From a virus, in UHGV virus genome UHGV-0322864: 40,716 bases of DNA. One strand, given 5' to 3'. The notes below the pieces were generated by a model. It worked only from the letters and a program-made list of their open reading frames with translations, was not told the DNA's origin and did no database searches. The number at the start of each line of letters is the position of its first letter. The stretch's first letter is position 1. This document shows, in pieces, positions 261 through 40,299 of the stretch. The position numbers and the translations under genes were made by a program.

Positions 261-308
261 ATAAATAAAAATGTCCTACCCCCTATATACATTATAGAAG
301 GCAGGACT
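261..308 (-). terminator. terminator-like hairpin plus U-tract after the 549-aa gene
   Basis: Minus-strand stem GTCCTGCC/GGTAGGAC (one mismatch) followed by AUUUUUAUUUAU. Confidence 0.4.
285..293 (-). promoter_or_regulatory. TAATGTATA motif (candidate phage middle/late promoter element)
   Basis: Exact 9-mer on the minus strand ~38 nt upstream of the ATG at 247, inside the loop of a terminator-like hairpin. Confidence 0.4.
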
Positions 309-17796: not shown

Positions 17797-17805
17797 TATA
17801 CATTA
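17797..17805 (-). promoter_or_regulatory. TAATGTATA motif (candidate phage middle/late promoter element)
   Basis: Exact 9-mer on the minus strand ~33 nt upstream of the ATG at 17763, just downstream of a terminator. Confidence 0.4.
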
Positions 17806-29335: not shown

Positions 29336-29411
29336 GACTAATCTTTCTCCTGTATTGTGCCGTGGTCATGCCTATGGTCATAATCTATCTGATGCTTTAA
29401 ATCCTTCCTGT

Positions 29412-29439
29412 AAGCCTCCTAGTGAGGCTTTTCTATTTT
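29412..29439 (+). terminator. intrinsic terminator closing the first early operon
   Basis: AAGCCTC-CTAGT-GAGGCTT followed by TTCTATTTT. Confidence 0.6.
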
Positions 29440-29596
29440 CTAAGGTGATTGTATCCCTTACTCCCTTTTAGCTCGTTATAGTGCGTTCTAGGCCGCTAAA
29501 TATCGCTTTACAAGCCATTTTCTATGATGTATCACGCGCTCCCGCTCTTTTATCTTCCCTATAGTGAAAAAGTTTAAAATAATTTGCTTTACCCTA

Positions 29597-29624
29597 TTGC
29601 ATAGCCATAAAACTGGCGTATACT
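29597..29624 (+). promoter_or_regulatory. weaker sigma70-like promoter (P0) of the tandem cluster
   Basis: TTGCAT - 16 nt - TATACT. Confidence 0.35.
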
Positions 29625-29722
29625 GATTTCTATCGGGTACGATGTAAAACATACAAGGCAAGGAAACTTGCCCCGCTCTTTAAAAATCAGGCTAGAAAGT
29701 GAAAATATTCTTAAAAAGAGTA

Positions 29723-29751
29723 TTGACACCAGAAAAAGCCTGATATATAGT
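29723..29751 (+). promoter_or_regulatory. consensus sigma70 promoter P1
   Basis: A-rich UP-like TTAAAAAGAG, then TTGACA - 17 nt - TATAGT. Confidence 0.7.
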
Positions 29752-29867
29752 GAGCATAAGTCAGCGATGACGTGAAATATCCCGCTCTTTAAAAACTTAT
29801 CATCTTGCCCTTTCGCATAGATTCAAGCGAGATAAGGGAACGGAATAAAAGAAGATGATAAAAAGAG

Positions 29868-29895
29868 TTGACAAGCTAACACGGTGTGTTAAGCT
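29868..29895 (+). promoter_or_regulatory. sigma70 promoter P2
   Basis: ATAAAAAGAG then TTGACA - 16 nt - TAAGCT. Confidence 0.5.
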
Positions 29896-30024
29896 ACAAA
29901 TGCAGTAACCGCTCTTTAAAAATATGAATCATAAGTTAAGCCTCACCGCTTAATCTTCAATCAAATATAGCTGATTGATATATCCTCCCAATAAGGGGAG
30001 CGACGAAAAAGATTAAAAAAGTGG

Positions 30025-30053
30025 TTGACAGCTAAAACAGCATGATTCATAAT
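30025..30053 (+). promoter_or_regulatory. sigma70 promoter P3
   Basis: ATTAAAAAAGTGG then TTGACA - 17 nt - CATAAT. Confidence 0.65.
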
Positions 30054-30975
30054 GAGCACTCACTAAGCAAATCATCGCGAAGTGAACAGCGTAACAACGG
30101 CTAACAGTTGCATAGTGTGAGAAAGCACACTGATAGATTTACCGCTCTTTAATAATTTAAACATTCTCCTATATCGGTTGAATATGCTTGATGATAATAA
30201 CCATCGGAAAGCATACCAGATAAAACGGTGTAAGATTCTCTAAACTATCAGAGAAAACAATCTTACAATCCCTTGCTGGAAACGTCACCACTGATAAACG
30301 GATTCATTGAGTGTACGCAAAGACTTAAGCTAATCGCCCACGGTTAAGGGTAGCGGCGGTCATCGCTAACAAGGCGCTACAGTGAAAGAAGTTAATCAGG
30401 GTAGGCAAGCCCGAAGAATTAACGCTCAATTGAGAGCGGCGGGGAGTGGTTAAAAAGTGGCAAATTGCTATTTAACAATAAGGTTTAGTGTGAACGTTTA
30501 CGATGTGAACGGCTTGAGATTCATCACAAGATGAAAGTACATAGTCGGTTTATGTAGTAAACTTGCCGAAAGATATAAAACGTCAGAACATTAGACGGTC
30601 AATGACTCTTTCACAATAGCATCCCGTTGTGGGCGATGGCTAGTGATTGAGAGTTGATACAAAAGGATAGGCGAGAGCGAAAGCAAAGTAGACGATATTG
30701 CCGACGGTTACAATAAACGTAACTAATTAGAGTCGGACGCACTGCCTTATTGTGATGATTGATCATCGCTATCAGGTCGGCTTCGTTTATAGCGACTAAT
30801 TAAAGATACCAGATGAAACATCACGGATAAGGGGGCGGCAAGGTTAACTCCTGATAAGACCGCCCCGCTTACCTATAACTACTTAACAACGAGTGGTTAT
30901 AGTTAAGTTAATAGTGACTTAAACAAGCTCATAGAGAGCGGGGCATAGTGCCCTAACAATTGAAAGGTGAATATC

Positions 30976-36850: not shown

Positions 36851-36958
36851 TAACGAGAACTCTTAATGAGGATGTATCTTCCCCGCCTTCTAAGCGGTCG
36901 TTAAAGAAGTAATTGGAGTATGCAGGTTCGAGGCCTGTCATCCTCGCTAAGAGTTCTT
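36851..36958 (+). repeat. long imperfect inverted repeat upstream of the HNH gene
   Basis: AACTCTTAATGAGGATG pairs with CATCCTCGCTAAGAGTT (15/17), about 60 nt apart. Confidence 0.5.
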
Positions 36959-36966
36959 GAGGTATT

Positions 36967-37506
36967 ATGAAGCTAGATTTAAGTAAAGCAGTTGTTGATA
37001 AAGGTGTTGGCTATTTGTATGTGTACCAACCAACACACCCTATGGCTAATAAAGCTGGAAAGGTGTATGTTCATAGGTATGTTGCTCAAAATTTCTATGG
37101 TGTCGAACTGAACTCTGACCTAGTGGTTCATCACAAGGATGAGAATAAGTTAAACAATGAGCCATCTAATTTAGAGATCATGACTTATGAGGAGCATAGC
37201 AGGCATCATCATGGGGCTGTTATGGAAGAAAGGTTATGTTCTTTTTGTGGAGAGATTTACCTTGTTTCAGAGAATAGCAACCAAAGGCTTTGCTCACAGG
37301 TTTGCGCCCAATTGGATAGTAGGAGATTTGAGATAACAAAAGAATCTCTTCAATCACTGATAGATACATACCCTGTATATGTAGTAGGACGTCTGTTAGG
37401 TGTTAGTGATGTAGCCATTCACAAAAGATGCAGAAGGCTTGGAGTTGTTAAAAAGCCCCAAGGATTCTGGTTAACCGGAGAAAGACTGAATGAAAAAATT
37501 AAGTGA
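36967..37506 (+). CDS. HNH homing-type endonuclease
   Basis: HNH signature VVHHKDENKLNNEPSNLEIMTYEEHSRHHH, then Cys pairs CSFCGE...CSQVC; 179 aa. Confidence 0.85.
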   Translation: MKLDLSKAVVDKGVGYLYVYQPTHPMANKAGKVYVHRYVAQNFYGVELNSDLVVHHKDENKLNNEPSNLEIMTYEEHSRHHHGAVMEERLCSFCGEIYLVSENSNQRLCSQVCAQLDSRRFEITKESLQSLIDTYPVYVVGRLLGVSDVAIHKRCRRLGVVKKPQGFWLTGERLNEKIK

Positions 37507-38731: not shown

Positions 38732-38905
38732 ATGAGCTGTTATGGTGGTGGAGAAGTGTATGATGACGATGACATGGAATCCAATGGTACATGTCCTGAT
38801 TGTGGGTGTGAAACTTTTGATGGTGTGTCAGTATACCCTGCCTGTAGTTACTCACCAGTGATCTGTAAAACATGTGGTGATCAGCCATGTGACCAGTCTT
38901 GCTAA
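38732..38905 (+). CDS. possible Cys-rich metal-binding small protein (57 aa)
   Basis: SD AAGGAG; eleven Cys including CPDCGC and CKTCGDQPCDQSC. Confidence 0.35.
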   Translation: MSCYGGGEVYDDDDMESNGTCPDCGCETFDGVSVYPACSYSPVICKTCGDQPCDQSC

Positions 38906-38914
38906 GAGAATATT

Positions 38915-39046
38915 ATGACTGAAGAATTTTTAAAGTGGTTTGGTGATACCTTCAAAGAGTATCTATTCTCTCCAGAAGACCTTGAAGAACTGAAAACCTA
39001 CACTTGGTTGGCTTGGAGAGATAGCCGACGAGAGATGAATAAGTAA
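38915..39046 (+). CDS. possible small protein (43 aa)
   Basis: ATG 10 nt after the upstream stop. Confidence 0.3.
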   Translation: MTEEFLKWFGDTFKEYLFSPEDLEELKTYTWLAWRDSRREMNK

Positions 39047-39057
39047 GAGACGATTAA

Positions 39058-39315
39058 ATGGATTTACTTGATATTTTTATCTCAGTTTACTTTATTGGAG
39101 TATTCCTTTCTGTTTTAGTGCTGAAACTGCTATACAAGAAGGGTTTATTAAAAGGGGTCATTACAACAGGGTCTACCAGCTCTGAACCTGATGAGATGAT
39201 GGTTGTGCTCTTAATTGTGTTGTGGCCTATCTCAATACTGGCAGGAGTTTTTTATCCAATAGGTTGGCTTCTGTTTAAAGCATATGATGCAGTTATGCAT
39301 TTTATCTTTAAGTAA
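39058..39315 (+). CDS. two-TM small membrane protein
   Basis: LDIFISVYFIGVFLSVLVLKLL and MMVVLLIVLWPISILAGVFYPIGWLLF. Confidence 0.5.
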   Translation: MDLLDIFISVYFIGVFLSVLVLKLLYKKGLLKGVITTGSTSSEPDEMMVVLLIVLWPISILAGVFYPIGWLLFKAYDAVMHFIFK

Positions 39316-39733
39316 TATCGTGAAGGATTCTTACGAGAGTCCTTTGAGATAGGACTTCAGATCTCCTATCAAACTAACATTCATGTAACTAGCCCATAAG
39401 GGCGTTACCCTTTAATAACCCAGCCCACTAAGGGGGCGGGAGTTTAGTGCTGGATTAGCATAACGCTTATTCCTACAAAGGCAACCGATTGTTAGATCTT
39501 ACATGCAATATTAATTAATAGGATATGGGAGGGTTCGTCCCCTCCCCCTATTTATAAATTACAGGTATAGCTTATGAGGCTAATTAATGCAGAGCCTACG
39601 GTAAAGCAGTCGCCCGTGGTCGAATGACCGTATGCCCATTGGATGCATTCCTTTGGTGATGGCTAGGGAGTCCGAGCGTAGGTCCGAACCCTACACCTGT
39701 AACCAAATCGAATAACATCTAATTGGAGGATGT

Positions 39734-40045
39734 ATGAAAGCTCGAAGAACTATATGGACTCCGATACAGATTGAAAATCTTCGGAGATTAATCAAAGAGT
39801 ACTCTGTTCAAGAGGTTGCTAAGATTATGAATGTAACGGAGAATGCAGTTAATACAGCTTGCACTAAGTTCGGTATCTCTAGAGCTGTAATCCGAGTTAA
39901 GTGGTCTAAAGAAGAAGACCAGTTCCTTATCCGTAATGCTGGGTTCATGTCTATTCAGAGAATGGCTGACATGCTCGGTAGAAGTTATGCTGCTGTGCAG
40001 AATAGGGCATGTATGCACCTTAACATTAGCCTAAAACTTAAATAG
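39734..40045 (+). CDS. tandem HTH (Myb/SANT-like) DNA-binding protein, putative regulator
   Basis: Two ~45-aa repeats each starting with Trp and carrying an HTH-like core (WTPIQIENLRRLIKEYSVQEVAKIMNVTENAV; WSKEEDQFLIRNAGFMSIQRMADMLGRSYAAVQNR); SD GGAGGA. Confidence 0.55.
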   Translation: MKARRTIWTPIQIENLRRLIKEYSVQEVAKIMNVTENAVNTACTKFGISRAVIRVKWSKEEDQFLIRNAGFMSIQRMADMLGRSYAAVQNRACMHLNISLKLK

Positions 40046-40053
40046 GAATCAAT

Positions 40054-40299
40054 ATGAAGATCATCCCAAAGATTAAAGATAACACTGTTTCACTGGCTAC
40101 AATTATTCCCGGAAACCCTTTCGTAGTTCAGAGAGGAACAGCATCTCCTCAGTATTACATCCGTGTCAGTAACGTGTCCAACAAAATCTCTGTAGAAGAG
40201 GGTTGGATTACGACAGTAAATCTACTGACTGGTGTACTGGGTGTTATGAAAAGTGATGCCCCAGTTGAAGTGATTCGTATGTCTGTGGTTCAGGAGTAA
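40054..40299 (+). CDS. small early protein, paralog family member e
   Basis: Motifs PGNPF, QYYIRV, TVNLLTGVL. Confidence 0.5.
   Translation: MKIIPKIKDNTVSLATIIPGNPFVVQRGTASPQYYIRVSNVSNKISVEEGWITTVNLLTGVLGVMKSDAPVEVIRMSVVQE

What the first reader, a model, noticed from the sequence alone, without database searches (positions are those of the whole stretch)
39316..40045. Tandem Myb/SANT-like HTH protein behind a 420-nt structured leader
Seen in sequence: the 39734-40045 product has two Trp-initiated HTH-like repeats. Its 418-nt upstream non-coding region has a UACG-loop hairpin (~39324-39343), a 7-bp hairpin (~39346-39370), a direct repeat AGCCCA(T/C)TAAGGG(G)GCG (~39392 and ~39422) and a GGGAGGG/CCCTCCC hairpin (~39526-39548). 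Inference: an autoregulated transcription factor or a phage-specific promoter region.
Basis: partly seen in the sequence, partly recalled or inferred. Interest (0 to 1): 0.45.

Follow-up and report, generated by a model that had tools for sequence, protein, structure and literature searches.

The report
Small-RNA cassettes, not a gene leader
The 418 bases in front of this phage's small DNA-binding protein gene are not that gene's regulatory leader: they hold two unannotated, conserved structured-RNA cassettes, one of them a 146-base tRNA look-alike that sits inside a tRNA gene array in unrelated Klebsiella phages.

Summary
The window is a phiEco32-like coliphage (Kuravirus). The 103-aa product is a tandem three-helix HTH protein (PHROG 323, weak Myb similarity).

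The 418-nt "leader" is modular.

Module A (39316-39559) is a chain of hairpins, an invariant 19-mer and a long 3' hairpin. It occurs in 113 phage records. It also occurs in ECBP2, a Salmonella phage and N4-like Gamaleyaviruses, where no homologue of the Myb-like gene lies within 1.2-1.5 kb.

Module D (39560-39705) is a tRNA-like RNA: a 7-bp acceptor stem, a T arm, A73 and an encoded CCA, with five non-tRNA hairpins. It occurs in 13 records. In Klebsiella phages GADU21 and HS106 it fills a slot between tRNA-Tyr and tRNA-Ser.

Compensatory substitutions support helices in both modules. No sigma-70-like or gp36-type promoter motif lies on the coding strand.

The best reading is a pair of unannotated small-RNA genes, of the same kind as the T4 tRNA-cluster RNAs RNAC and RNAD. 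They are probably cut from the early transcript by tRNA-processing enzymes. Their function is unknown. The autoregulation and phage-promoter readings are not supported.

The parts
39316..39559 (+). Module A: a conserved structured non-coding element. It runs from the stop codon of the upstream ORF to the 5' end of module D.
   Evidence: It occurs in 113 phage records. Among the best places of each record, 77 are at least 95% identical, 3 are 80-90% and 33 are 60-80%. The modular boundaries come from alignment A1. G-U pairs fall on the + strand in hairpin 1.
39323..39344 (+). Hairpin 1: 9-bp stem with a UACG loop.
   Evidence: 98.5% of cells are paired across 8 distinct sequences, against 31-72% when the partners are slid. 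One pair is seen as A-U, G-U and G-C.
39348..39370 (+). Hairpin 2: 7-bp stem with the conserved loop CUUCAGAUC.
   Evidence: Two pairs switch G-C/A-U to A-U/G-C between Kuravirus and Gamaleyavirus.
39385..39408 (+). Hairpin 3: GUAAC-UA-GCCC-AUAA-GGGC-GUUAC.
   Evidence: It appears in the minimum-free-energy fold. In ECBP2 and Gamaleyavirus a different hairpin, GCUCAA/UUGAGC, occupies the same position.
39419..39440 (+). Hairpin 4: CCC-A-GCCC-ACUAAGG-GGGC-GGG. It contains copy 2 of the direct repeat.
   Evidence: It appears in the minimum-free-energy fold. It is conserved in PhAPEC5. ECBP2-type phages have AGCCC/GGGCU at this position.
39452..39473 (+). Hairpin 5: GGAUUAGC / GCUUAUUCC, an imperfect stem.
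   Evidence: This was read by eye from alignment A5. L009 and NAN33P5 have a perfect 7-bp GGAUAGC/GCUAUCU stem here. It has not been tested formally.
39490..39508 (+). Invariant 19-mer TGTTAGRTCTTACATGCAA, predicted to be mostly unpaired.
   Evidence: It occurs exactly once in each of 22 phage loci from Kuravirus, Suseptimavirus, a Salmonella phage and Gamaleyavirus. It occurs once in the window, against 0.04 expected.
39517..39552 (+). Bipartite 3' hairpin: AAUAGG / CCUAUU as the outer stem, GGGAGGG / CCCUCCC as the inner stem.
   Evidence: The inner stem has 2 compensatory pairs in the Salmonella phage and 100% of its cells paired. The scan calls it terminator-like, but the U-rich tail can pair into the outer stem.
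39560..39705 (+). Module D: a 146-nt tRNA-like RNA gene.
- Acceptor stem: 39560-39566 / 39695-39701.
- T arm: 39678-39694.
- Discriminator: A39702.
- CCA: 39703-39705.
- In between: five further hairpins and a 10-nt single strand.
   Evidence: - It occurs in 13 phage records at 93-97% identity.
- In GADU21 and HS106 it lies between tRNA-Tyr and tRNA-Ser.
- The consensus structure has 3 compensatory pairs in 3 helices. 98% of cells are paired, against 31-45% when the partners are slid.
- It is one of only two T-arm-pattern hits in the whole window.
39725..39729 (+). Shine-Dalgarno GGAGG, 4 nt before the ATG.
   Evidence: Read from the sequence. It is conserved in all relatives regardless of which modules precede it.
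39734..40045 (+). 103-aa tandem HTH (Myb-like) protein, PHROG 323.
   Evidence: The second repeat is almost invariant among homologues. The first repeat diverges.

Best explanation
The 418-nt region is a small-RNA locus made of two independent cassettes. They lie in the rightward early operon of a Kuravirus, immediately upstream of a separately translated HTH-protein gene.

**Cassette A (39316-39559).** This is a structured RNA: five short hairpins, then a 19-nt invariant and largely single-stranded motif, then an AU-rich stretch, then a long GC-rich 3' hairpin.

**Cassette D (39560-39705).** This is a tRNA mimic. An acceptor/T-arm minihelix with A73-CCA closes a body of five non-tRNA hairpins.

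**Shown:**
- The sequence features and their conservation.
- The covariation in helices of both cassettes.
- That the cassettes occur separately from each other and from the Myb-like gene.
- That D lies inside tRNA arrays in other phages.

**Inferred mechanism:**
- Both cassettes are transcribed as part of the long early transcript. Near-consensus sigma-70 promoters lie at 29723 and 30025.
- RNase P cuts at the 39559/39560 junction.
- The tRNA 3'-processing enzymes (RNase E plus exonucleases) trim just after CCA39705. This releases a stable RNA of about 146 nt.
- The same cuts leave cassette A with a hairpin-protected 3' end. They also leave the HTH mRNA with a 5' end about 28 nt before its AUG.

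The trans-acting role of the RNAs is unknown. By analogy with phage tRNAs, a decoy or mimic of tRNA-binding factors is the leading guess for D. A base-pairing or protein-binding sRNA is the leading guess for A.
For: **Modularity**
- The window has A+D. SU10 has A+B. XT32 and FH3 have A+B+C+D. The phiEco32 locus and contig L028 carry A with no match to D, and no B or C is visible by eye in their sequence.

**A is independent of the gene**
- A is present in ECBP2, PKM.Hi.22.6 and Gamaleyavirus with no Myb homologue nearby.
- In the Gamaleyavirus loci examined (PhAPEC5, Uz-1), A opens an ORF-poor stretch holding tRNAs and tRNA-like units.

**D is tRNA-like**
- It has a 7-bp acceptor stem, a 5-bp T stem and a 7-nt T loop. 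The loop is UUCGAAU or UUCGAAC in 8 of 10 copies. It also has A73 and CCA.
- It has the same AAU spacers as the genuine tRNAs of GADU21 and N4.

**Covariation**
- In D, G6:C67 becomes A:U, one pair in helix 2 changes from G:C to A:U, and one pair in helix 6 changes from A:U to G:C.
- In A, four pairs show compensatory changes.

**Related units elsewhere**
- A covariance model of D finds 124-nt units in five Gamaleyavirus-type loci at E of about 1e-5 to 1e-4. These units have the same ends (UAC...ACCA) and a T arm.

**Same kind as known RNAs**
- T4 RNAC folds into a T arm plus a closing stem with long inserted hairpins. It lies in the T4 tRNA cluster.

**Promoters**
- No promoter motif lies on the + strand of the leader.
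Against: - There is no expression or processing data for any Kuravirus.
- D alone is not unusually stable (z = -1.25).
- Divergence among D copies is only 3-7%, so the covariation rests on three pairs.
- The window's own copy has a non-canonical T loop (UCCGAAC, with C at position 55).
- Two metagenomic copies have TCA in place of CCA.
- In HS106 both sides of one possible pair (alignment A4 columns 47 and 78, not a pair of the consensus structure) changed to A and A. Column 47 is also unpaired with its consensus partner, column 64 (A-G).
- D is present in only 13 of about 113 relatives, so it is dispensable.
- No target was found for the invariant 19-mer.
Confidence: 0.7

Rival explanations
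1. One reading: the region is the 5' leader or operator of the HTH gene, and the protein autoregulates by binding the direct repeats.
For: - The region lies directly upstream of the gene.
- The protein is HTH-type.
- Two similar 14-17-nt motifs exist.
- The leader is conserved.
Against: - Module A occurs without the gene in ECBP2, PKM.Hi.22.6 and Gamaleyavirus.
- The gene occurs behind different module combinations, with only the last ~14 nt including the Shine-Dalgarno sequence kept.
- In phiEco32 another gene intervenes.
- Repeat copy 1 is replaced by an unrelated hairpin in ECBP2 and Gamaleyaviruses.
- Compensatory changes point to selection at the RNA level.
Confidence: 0.06
2. The region is a phage-specific (gp36 sigma) or host sigma-70 promoter region that starts a new transcription unit.
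For: The intergenic gap is long, and there is an AT-rich stretch at 39505-39526.
Against: - tAATGTAtA has no + strand match in the leader, and the window total (11) is below the shuffle mean of 13.9.
- The phiEco32 gp36 promoters precede genes 6, 13, 26, 40, 58 and 68, none of which is this locus (PMC8948821).
- No sigma-70-like site lies on the + strand in 38900-40100.
- N4-like phages share the element, and from general knowledge they transcribe this part of the genome with their own polymerase.
Confidence: 0.04
3. The cassettes are decaying remnants of tRNA genes or selfish mobile DNA. They look conserved only because of recent horizontal transfer and have no RNA function.
For: - The distribution is patchy: D occurs in 13 records.
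- Identity between unrelated phage families is 93-94%, which implies recent transfer.
- Some copies have a degenerate T loop or a degenerate CCA.
- Other degenerate tRNA-like units lie in the same islands.
Against: - Compensatory double substitutions occur in three D helices and in two helices of A.
- An exactly invariant 19-mer is shared by lineages that are otherwise 66-77% identical over the module.
- Hairpin 3 was replaced by a different hairpin rather than lost.
Confidence: 0.13
4. Module A is only an mRNA punctuation or stability element. It would act as a 3' stem-loop protector or weak terminator for the upstream genes, and D would be a 't-element' that makes RNase P and RNase E cut the polycistronic mRNA. 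Neither would have a trans-acting role.
For: - The hairpin at 39527-39546 is scored terminator-like.
- D ends 28 nt before the AUG.
- tRNA-like t-elements define mRNA ends in plant mitochondria (PMC1920247, listed).
Against: - D sits inside a pure tRNA array in GADU21 and HS106, with no mRNA adjacent to punctuate.
- The 19-nt sequence invariance is more than a stability hairpin needs.
- Many Kuraviruses express the same gene without D.
Confidence: 0.15

Closest known systems
Phage T4 RNAC and RNAD (species 1 and species 2 RNAs)
   Same: - They are small RNAs of about 120-140 nt encoded on the tRNA strand of a phage tRNA cluster.
- RNAC folds with a canonical T arm (CCGGG-UUCGAAU-CCCGG) next to a terminal closing stem, with long hairpins replacing the D and anticodon arms.
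- Their function is still unknown (PMC3014915, PMC9697503).
- Neither has an Rfam family.
   Different: - No sequence or covariance-model similarity to module D was found.
- D has a perfect 7-bp acceptor stem and an encoded ACCA.
- In this window D is not adjacent to any canonical tRNA.
- D is shared at 93-94% identity between unrelated phage families.
Canonical (class II-like) tRNA
   Same: D has an acceptor stem, a T arm, a discriminator, CCA and a variable-arm-like hairpin before the T arm. It occupies a tRNA slot in an array, with the same AAU spacers.
   Different: - There is no supported D arm.
- There is no 7-nt anticodon loop; the candidate loop is 5 nt and closed by a covarying pair.
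- It is 146 nt long.
- It falls below the ARAGORN and Rfam thresholds.
- The 'intron' model from relaxed ARAGORN is contradicted by substitutions. Relaxed ARAGORN also makes 19 calls in the window, most of them inside long ORFs that are probably genes.
tRNA-like processing signals (plant mitochondrial t-elements; the tRNA-like domain of tmRNA)
   Same: An acceptor/T-arm minihelix is used as a handle for RNase P and 3' processing enzymes outside a true tRNA.
   Different: There is no tag ORF and there are no pseudoknots, and ARAGORN's tmRNA search finds nothing. Unlike t-elements, D also occurs inside pure tRNA arrays.
Myb/SANT R2R3 DNA-binding domains and PHROG 323 'D5-like transcriptional regulator'
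   Same: - The protein has two tandem three-helix HTH repeats, each starting with Trp.
- Sequence hits are Cef1 and c-Myb.
- The Foldseek top hits are Reb1, Cef1/CDC5L and Myb3.
- PHROG 323 matches at E = 4.8e-28.
   Different: - Only the first of the three Myb tryptophans is kept in each repeat.
- Pfam Myb_DNA-binding scores 19.0, below the cut-off of 24.4. The only Pfam family above its cut-off is Sigma70_r4_2.
- Repeat 2 also weakly resembles the C-terminal HTH of the window's HNH endonuclease (E = 0.009).
- Some records annotate the same gene as 'endonuclease'.

Membership tests
Canonical tRNA (Rfam RF00005 / ARAGORN) | 7-bp acceptor stem joining the 5' and 3' ends, an unpaired discriminator and a 3' CCA | tested here: met
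   TACAGGT / ACCTGTA, then A, then CCA. One pair covaries (G:C to A:U).
Canonical tRNA (Rfam RF00005 / ARAGORN) | T arm: a 5-bp stem and a 7-nt UUCRANY loop, directly 5' of the acceptor 3' strand | tested here: met
   GTAGG-TTCGAAT/TTCGAAC-CCTAC in 8 of 10 copies. The window and XT32 copies have TCCGAAC.
Canonical tRNA (Rfam RF00005 / ARAGORN) | A D arm and an anticodon arm with a 7-nt loop | tested here: not met
   The consensus structure has five other hairpins. The candidate loop is 5 nt and closed by a covarying pair.
Canonical tRNA (Rfam RF00005 / ARAGORN) | A score above the detection thresholds | tested here: not met
   ARAGORN at default settings finds 0 genes. Rfam has no hit even at E <= 10 for RF00005 in 39200-39800.
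T4 RNAC/RNAD-type tRNA-cluster small RNAs | Encoded within a phage tRNA array on the tRNA strand | tested here: met
   This is met for the GADU21 and HS106 copies, which lie between tRNA-Tyr and tRNA-Ser. In the window itself the nearest tRNA-like gene is 2.6 kb upstream.
T4 RNAC/RNAD-type tRNA-cluster small RNAs | About 120-140 nt, with a T arm beside a terminal closing stem and non-tRNA hairpins inside | tested here: met
   Compare the T4 RNAC fold with the D consensus structure.
T4 RNAC/RNAD-type tRNA-cluster small RNAs | Sequence or covariance-model homology to T4 rnaC or rnaD | tested here: not met
   The alignment shows no similarity. Model R1 does not hit rnaC or rnaD in L020.
T4 RNAC/RNAD-type tRNA-cluster small RNAs | Accumulates as a stable processed RNA in infected cells | not testable with these tools
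   This needs a northern blot or small-RNA sequencing.
tmRNA | A tRNA-like domain plus a tag reading frame and pseudoknots | tested here: not met
   The ARAGORN tmRNA search finds nothing, even at the relaxed threshold.
Intrinsic terminator (39527-39546) | A GC-rich hairpin immediately followed by a U tract | tested here: inconclusive
   The consensus scan flags it. However, the tail is CCUAUUUAU, and it can pair with AAUAGG at 39517-39522.
phiEco32 gp36-dependent promoter | The single element tAATGTAtA 6-8 nt upstream of the transcription start | tested here: not met
   There is no + strand match in the leader, and matches across the window are at or below the shuffle expectation.
Myb/SANT domain (Pfam PF00249) | A score above the Pfam gathering threshold | tested here: not met
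   19.0 bits against a cut-off of 24.4. Myb_DNA-bind_6 scores 14.5 against 22.9.
Myb/SANT domain (Pfam PF00249) | Tandem three-helix repeats that resemble solved Myb domains | tested here: inconclusive
   The AF2 model has two three-helix units. phmmer gives Cef1 at 4.2e-4 and c-Myb at 1.8e-3. The Foldseek top hits are Myb-type, with probability 0.96-0.97 but E >= 0.085.
Myb/SANT domain (Pfam PF00249) | Three regularly spaced tryptophans per repeat | tested here: not met
   Only W8 and W57 are present. This was read from the translation.
PHROG 323 (transcriptional regulator, D5-like) | A significant profile match | tested here: met
   E = 4.8e-28. Residues 2-97 match profile positions 91-190 of 319.

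The most novel reading that the evidence does not exclude
Modules A and D, together with the related modules B and C and the 124-nt units seen in relatives, would belong to a previously undescribed pool of horizontally mobile structured-RNA cassettes. Under this reading the cassettes travel with phage tRNA islands across unrelated enterobacterial phage groups: Kuravirus and Suseptimavirus, N4-like Schitoviridae including N4 itself, some siphoviruses and jumbo phages. They would act in trans during infection, for example as tRNA mimics that titrate host tRNA-directed defence nucleases or tRNA-binding enzymes. Module A would be an sRNA whose invariant 19-nt motif is its binding face.
Probability: 0.3. 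Interest if true: 0.72.

Novelty: new member of a known kind. Interest (0 to 1): 0.48.

Why it matters
**An old open question.** Small stable RNAs encoded beside phage tRNA genes have been known in T4 for decades, and no function has been assigned (PMC3014915; the date is from general knowledge).

**What this locus adds.** Distinct RNAs of the same kind exist, unannotated and absent from Rfam, in phiEco32-like and N4-like phages. They are exchanged as discrete cassettes between unrelated phage families.

**Why that makes the question testable.** Natural presence/absence variants are available: A only, A+B, A+D and A+B+C+D. They sit in otherwise near-identical, easily grown coliphages, several of them in the BASEL collection. 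This is a ready-made genetic system for asking what such RNAs do.

**Annotation.**
- It corrects spurious ORF calls inside the RNAs in the XT32 and GADU21 records.
- It warns against reading long structured intergenic regions as gene leaders.

Tried and rejected
- **Rfam 15.** Searches at gathering and at permissive thresholds gave only chance-level hits: sroC at 23.7 bits against a gathering score of 45, CssrA and DdR16.
- **ARAGORN.** Default settings found nothing. Relaxed settings with introns called module D 'tRNA-Leu with a 58-nt intron'. The same settings make 19 calls in the window, most of them inside long ORFs that are probably genes. The proposed anticodon stem is also broken by the FH3 substitutions. 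This model is rejected.
- **Homology to T4 rnaC/rnaD.** None was found.
- **Host origin or target.** No E. coli genome matches the 397-nt region at E <= 1. The 19-mer in 185,579 species genomes gave one chance match inside a Chitinophagales coding region and one mis-binned Kuravirus contig. In the window, complementarity to the motif is 10 nt at most, which is chance level.
- **Metagenome scan for D.** Only 3 contigs were found, all Kuravirus-like.
- **Homing-endonuclease insertion hot spot.** I suspected this because 'endonuclease' was annotated under the match in XT18 and EcoN5. In XT18 that annotation is the same 103-aa HTH gene. In EcoN5 it is a small downstream ORF. The idea is dropped.
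- **Promoter readings of the invariant motif.** I tried sigma-70, extended -10, and CRP, LexA and CytR-like half-sites by eye. None was convincing, and the scan found no + strand site.
- **Literature.** Searches for Kuravirus or N4 small RNAs and tRNA-like RNAs found nothing on these elements.
Full report
**What the window is.** The region matches 110 phage records, almost all Escherichia phages of the genus Kuravirus (phiEco32, SU10 and relatives), at 85-96% identity. Late genes run leftward up to about 27.3 kb. The remaining ORFs run rightward. The finding lies deep in the rightward block.

**Check of the observation.**
- A 9-bp hairpin with a UACG loop: 39323-39331 / 39336-39344.
- A 7-bp hairpin: 39348-39354 / 39364-39370.
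- Two similar motifs at 39391-39404 and 39422-39438. Each is itself a GCCC/GGGC hairpin.
- A GGGAGGG/CCCTCCC hairpin: 39527-39533 / 39540-39546.

No + strand ORF of 30 aa or more lies in 39316-39733. The 418 nt fold better than 99 of 100 shuffles (z = -2.5).

**The protein.**
- It matches PHROG 323 'transcriptional regulator, D5-like' at E = 4.8e-28.
- The only Pfam family above its cut-off is Sigma70_r4_2. Myb_DNA-binding scores below threshold.
- Solved Myb domains match weakly: Cef1 at 4.2e-4 and c-Myb at 1.8e-3, spanning both repeats.
- An AlphaFold model (pLDDT 78) shows two three-helix units.
- The best Foldseek matches are Reb1, Cef1/CDC5L, Myb3 and the Tc3 bipartite HTH. Their probabilities are 0.8-0.97, but E is at least 0.085.

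'Tandem Myb-like HTH' is therefore a fair description. Only the first tryptophan of each repeat is kept.

**The leader is modular.** I aligned the intergenic region with three relatives.
- A first block (module A, 39316 to about 39559) is almost identical in all four.
- After it, SU10 carries an 88-nt block B.
- XT32 and FH3 carry B, a block C, and then a block D.
- The window carries D alone (39560-39705).
- The phiEco32 locus and contig L028 carry A with no match to D, and no B or C is visible by eye in their sequence.
- Only the last ~14 nt before the ATG, including the GGAGG Shine-Dalgarno sequence, are common to all arrangements.

**Module D is a tRNA look-alike.**

*Sequence features.*
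- It starts TACAGGT and ends ACCTGTA-A-CCA.
- Directly before the 3' strand lies GTAGG-TCCGAAC-CCTAC. In 8 of 10 copies this is the canonical TTCGAAT or TTCGAAC.
- A pattern scan for such T arms finds only two sites in the whole window. One is this site. The other is a degenerate tRNA-Arg-like gene.

*Distribution and context.*
- D occurs in only 13 phage records.
- Two of them are Klebsiella phages GADU21 and HS106 (Schitoviridae, Efbeekayvirus).
- In GADU21, ARAGORN places it in the slot between tRNA-Tyr and tRNA-Ser. It is separated from them by the same AAU spacers as the other tRNAs.

*Structure.*
- The consensus structure of ten copies has eight helices.
- They comprise the acceptor stem, the T arm, a variable-arm-like hairpin and five hairpins that are not found in tRNAs.
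- A 10-nt single strand follows the acceptor stem.

*Covariation.*
- Three pairs in three helices show double compensatory changes.
- 98% of cells are paired, against 31-45% when the partners are slid.
- Divergence is low (3-7%), so this evidence is real but thin.

*What it is not.* D is neither a canonical tRNA nor a tRNA with an intron.
- ARAGORN and Rfam do not reach threshold.
- The relaxed ARAGORN 'intron' model is non-specific and is contradicted by substitutions.

*Possible distant relatives.* A covariance model of D finds 124-nt units in five Gamaleyavirus-type loci at E of about 1e-5 to 1e-4. These units have the same ends and a T arm.

**Module A is a conserved structured element independent of the gene.**

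*Distribution.* It occurs in 113 records.
- 77 records match at 95% identity or more (the Kuravirus loci compared are 96-99%).
- A Salmonella phage is 88% identical.
- ECBP2-type Suseptimavirus is about 77% identical.
- The core (39412-39552), and separately hairpins 1 and 2, are also in N4-like Gamaleyaviruses. In the loci examined (PhAPEC5, Uz-1) they open an ORF-poor stretch holding tRNAs and tRNA-like units.

*No link to the HTH gene.*
- tblastn finds no homologue of the HTH protein in the ECBP2, Salmonella-phage or Gamaleyavirus flanks.
- In phiEco32 the protein is only 63% identical and sits behind another gene, while module A is 97% identical at the nucleotide level.

*Structure and sequence conservation.*
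- Hairpin 2 and the 3' hairpin carry four compensatory pairs. 99% of their cells are paired, against about 60% when the partners are slid.
- Hairpin 1 keeps pairing through A-U, G-U and G-C.
- In ECBP2 and Gamaleyaviruses hairpin 3 is replaced by an unrelated hairpin at the same place.
- A 19-mer, TGTTAGRTCTTACATGCAA, is invariant and occurs exactly once in each of 22 loci.
- G-U pairs place the RNA on the + strand.

**It is not a promoter.**
- The phiEco32 gp36 element tAATGTAtA has no + strand match in the leader. The motif and the mapped promoter positions come from PMC8948821.
- The sigma-70 scan finds nothing on the + strand in this region.
- Near-consensus sigma-70 promoters lie about 9.5 kb upstream, at 29723 and 30025. 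They are the likely source of transcription through this locus. This is an inference.

**Wider context.**
- Part of module C is absent from the window but lies between A and D in XT32. It is found in 155 phage records.
- Those records include phage N4 itself, in its unannotated tRNA region between gp47 and gp48. They also include siphoviruses such as DS8 and, for another part of C, jumbo phages.
- The T-arm-like stem of C covaries in DS8.
- The Kuravirus intergenic region therefore draws on a pool of small structured cassettes that travel with phage tRNA islands.

**Comparison with what is known.**
- The closest known kind is the pair of T4 tRNA-cluster RNAs, RNAC and RNAD. They are similar in size, and RNAC has a T arm beside a closing stem.
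- Their function is still unknown (PMC3014915, PMC9697503).
- There is no sequence or model-level homology to D. Rfam has no family for them either, so the negative Rfam result says little about novelty of kind.
- I file D as a new member of that kind, not as a tRNA.
- Module A has no known counterpart. Its layout, with a conserved single strand, then an AU-rich stretch, then a strong 3' hairpin, resembles processed sRNAs. No target was found.

**Most likely mechanism (inferred).**
- The cassettes are co-transcribed with the early genes.
- RNase P cuts at 39559/39560, and the tRNA 3'-end processing enzymes trim after CCA39705.
- This releases a stable tRNA mimic.
- It leaves module A with a hairpin-protected 3' end, and it leaves the HTH mRNA starting about 28 nt before its AUG.
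- What the RNAs do in trans is unknown.

**Verdict.** The protein call is reasonable. The autoregulatory-leader and promoter readings are not supported. The locus is a moderately interesting set of unannotated phage small-RNA genes.

Noticed in passing
window 36868-36946 (+): A tRNA-Arg(UCU)-like gene lacking a D arm and carrying a ~20-nt extra segment. It scores 25.5 bits against Rfam tRNA, below the gathering score of 29, and ARAGORN at default settings misses it. It occupies the place where SU10, XT32 and ECBP2 carry a canonical tRNA-Arg(UCU). It lies 20 nt upstream of an HNH endonuclease gene (36967-37506).
   Followed up: partly
window 29336-30966: A 1.6-kb stretch without ORFs of 60 aa or more. 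It holds two near-consensus sigma-70 promoters on the + strand (TTGACA-17-TATAGT at 29723-29751 and TTGACA-17-CATAAT at 30025-30053). It also holds four copies of CCGCTCTTTAAAAA-like repeats (29668, 29777, 29904, 30137). This is probably the early promoter region or genome terminus.
   Followed up: partly
L029 (phage N4, NC_008720 32113-33631): The reference N4 record annotates nothing between gp47 and gp48. ARAGORN finds tRNA-Asn, Ser, Thr and Pro there. The same stretch holds module C and a 66-nt degenerate tRNA-like unit ending in ACCA.
   Followed up: partly
L006 (PhAPEC5) 890-2760; also L016, L017, L008, L009: Gamaleyaviruses carry a stretch of about 1.9 kb with no long ORFs. It holds modules A, B and C, a 66-nt unit, a 124-nt tRNA-like unit (2235-2358) and other units with T arms. 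Some records annotate these as 'tRNA-Undet', 'tRNA-OTHER' or tiny hypothetical proteins.
   Followed up: partly
window 39058-39315: An 85-aa predicted membrane-protein ORF is present here but absent from SU10, XT32 and FH3. In those phages module A directly follows the homologue of the 38915-39046 ORF. AAGTAA is repeated at both junctions.
   Followed up: no
window 39587-39591 and 39643-39647 (module D): The loop of helix 2 (AAUGCAG) and the loop of helix 6 (UGCAU) both contain the palindrome UGCA. They could form a 5-bp kissing interaction or mediate dimerisation. Both are invariant, so there is no covariation to test this.
   Followed up: no
L002 1464-1634 (-) and L019 1504-1593 (-): The XT32 and GADU21 records annotate hypothetical proteins on the opposite strand inside modules B/C and D. 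These are probably spurious calls over RNA genes.
   Followed up: no
window 286-294 (-) and 17797-17805 (-): There are exact matches to the phiEco32 gp36 promoter element TAATGTATA on the late-gene strand, just upstream of leftward ORFs. These are candidate middle or late promoters.
   Followed up: no
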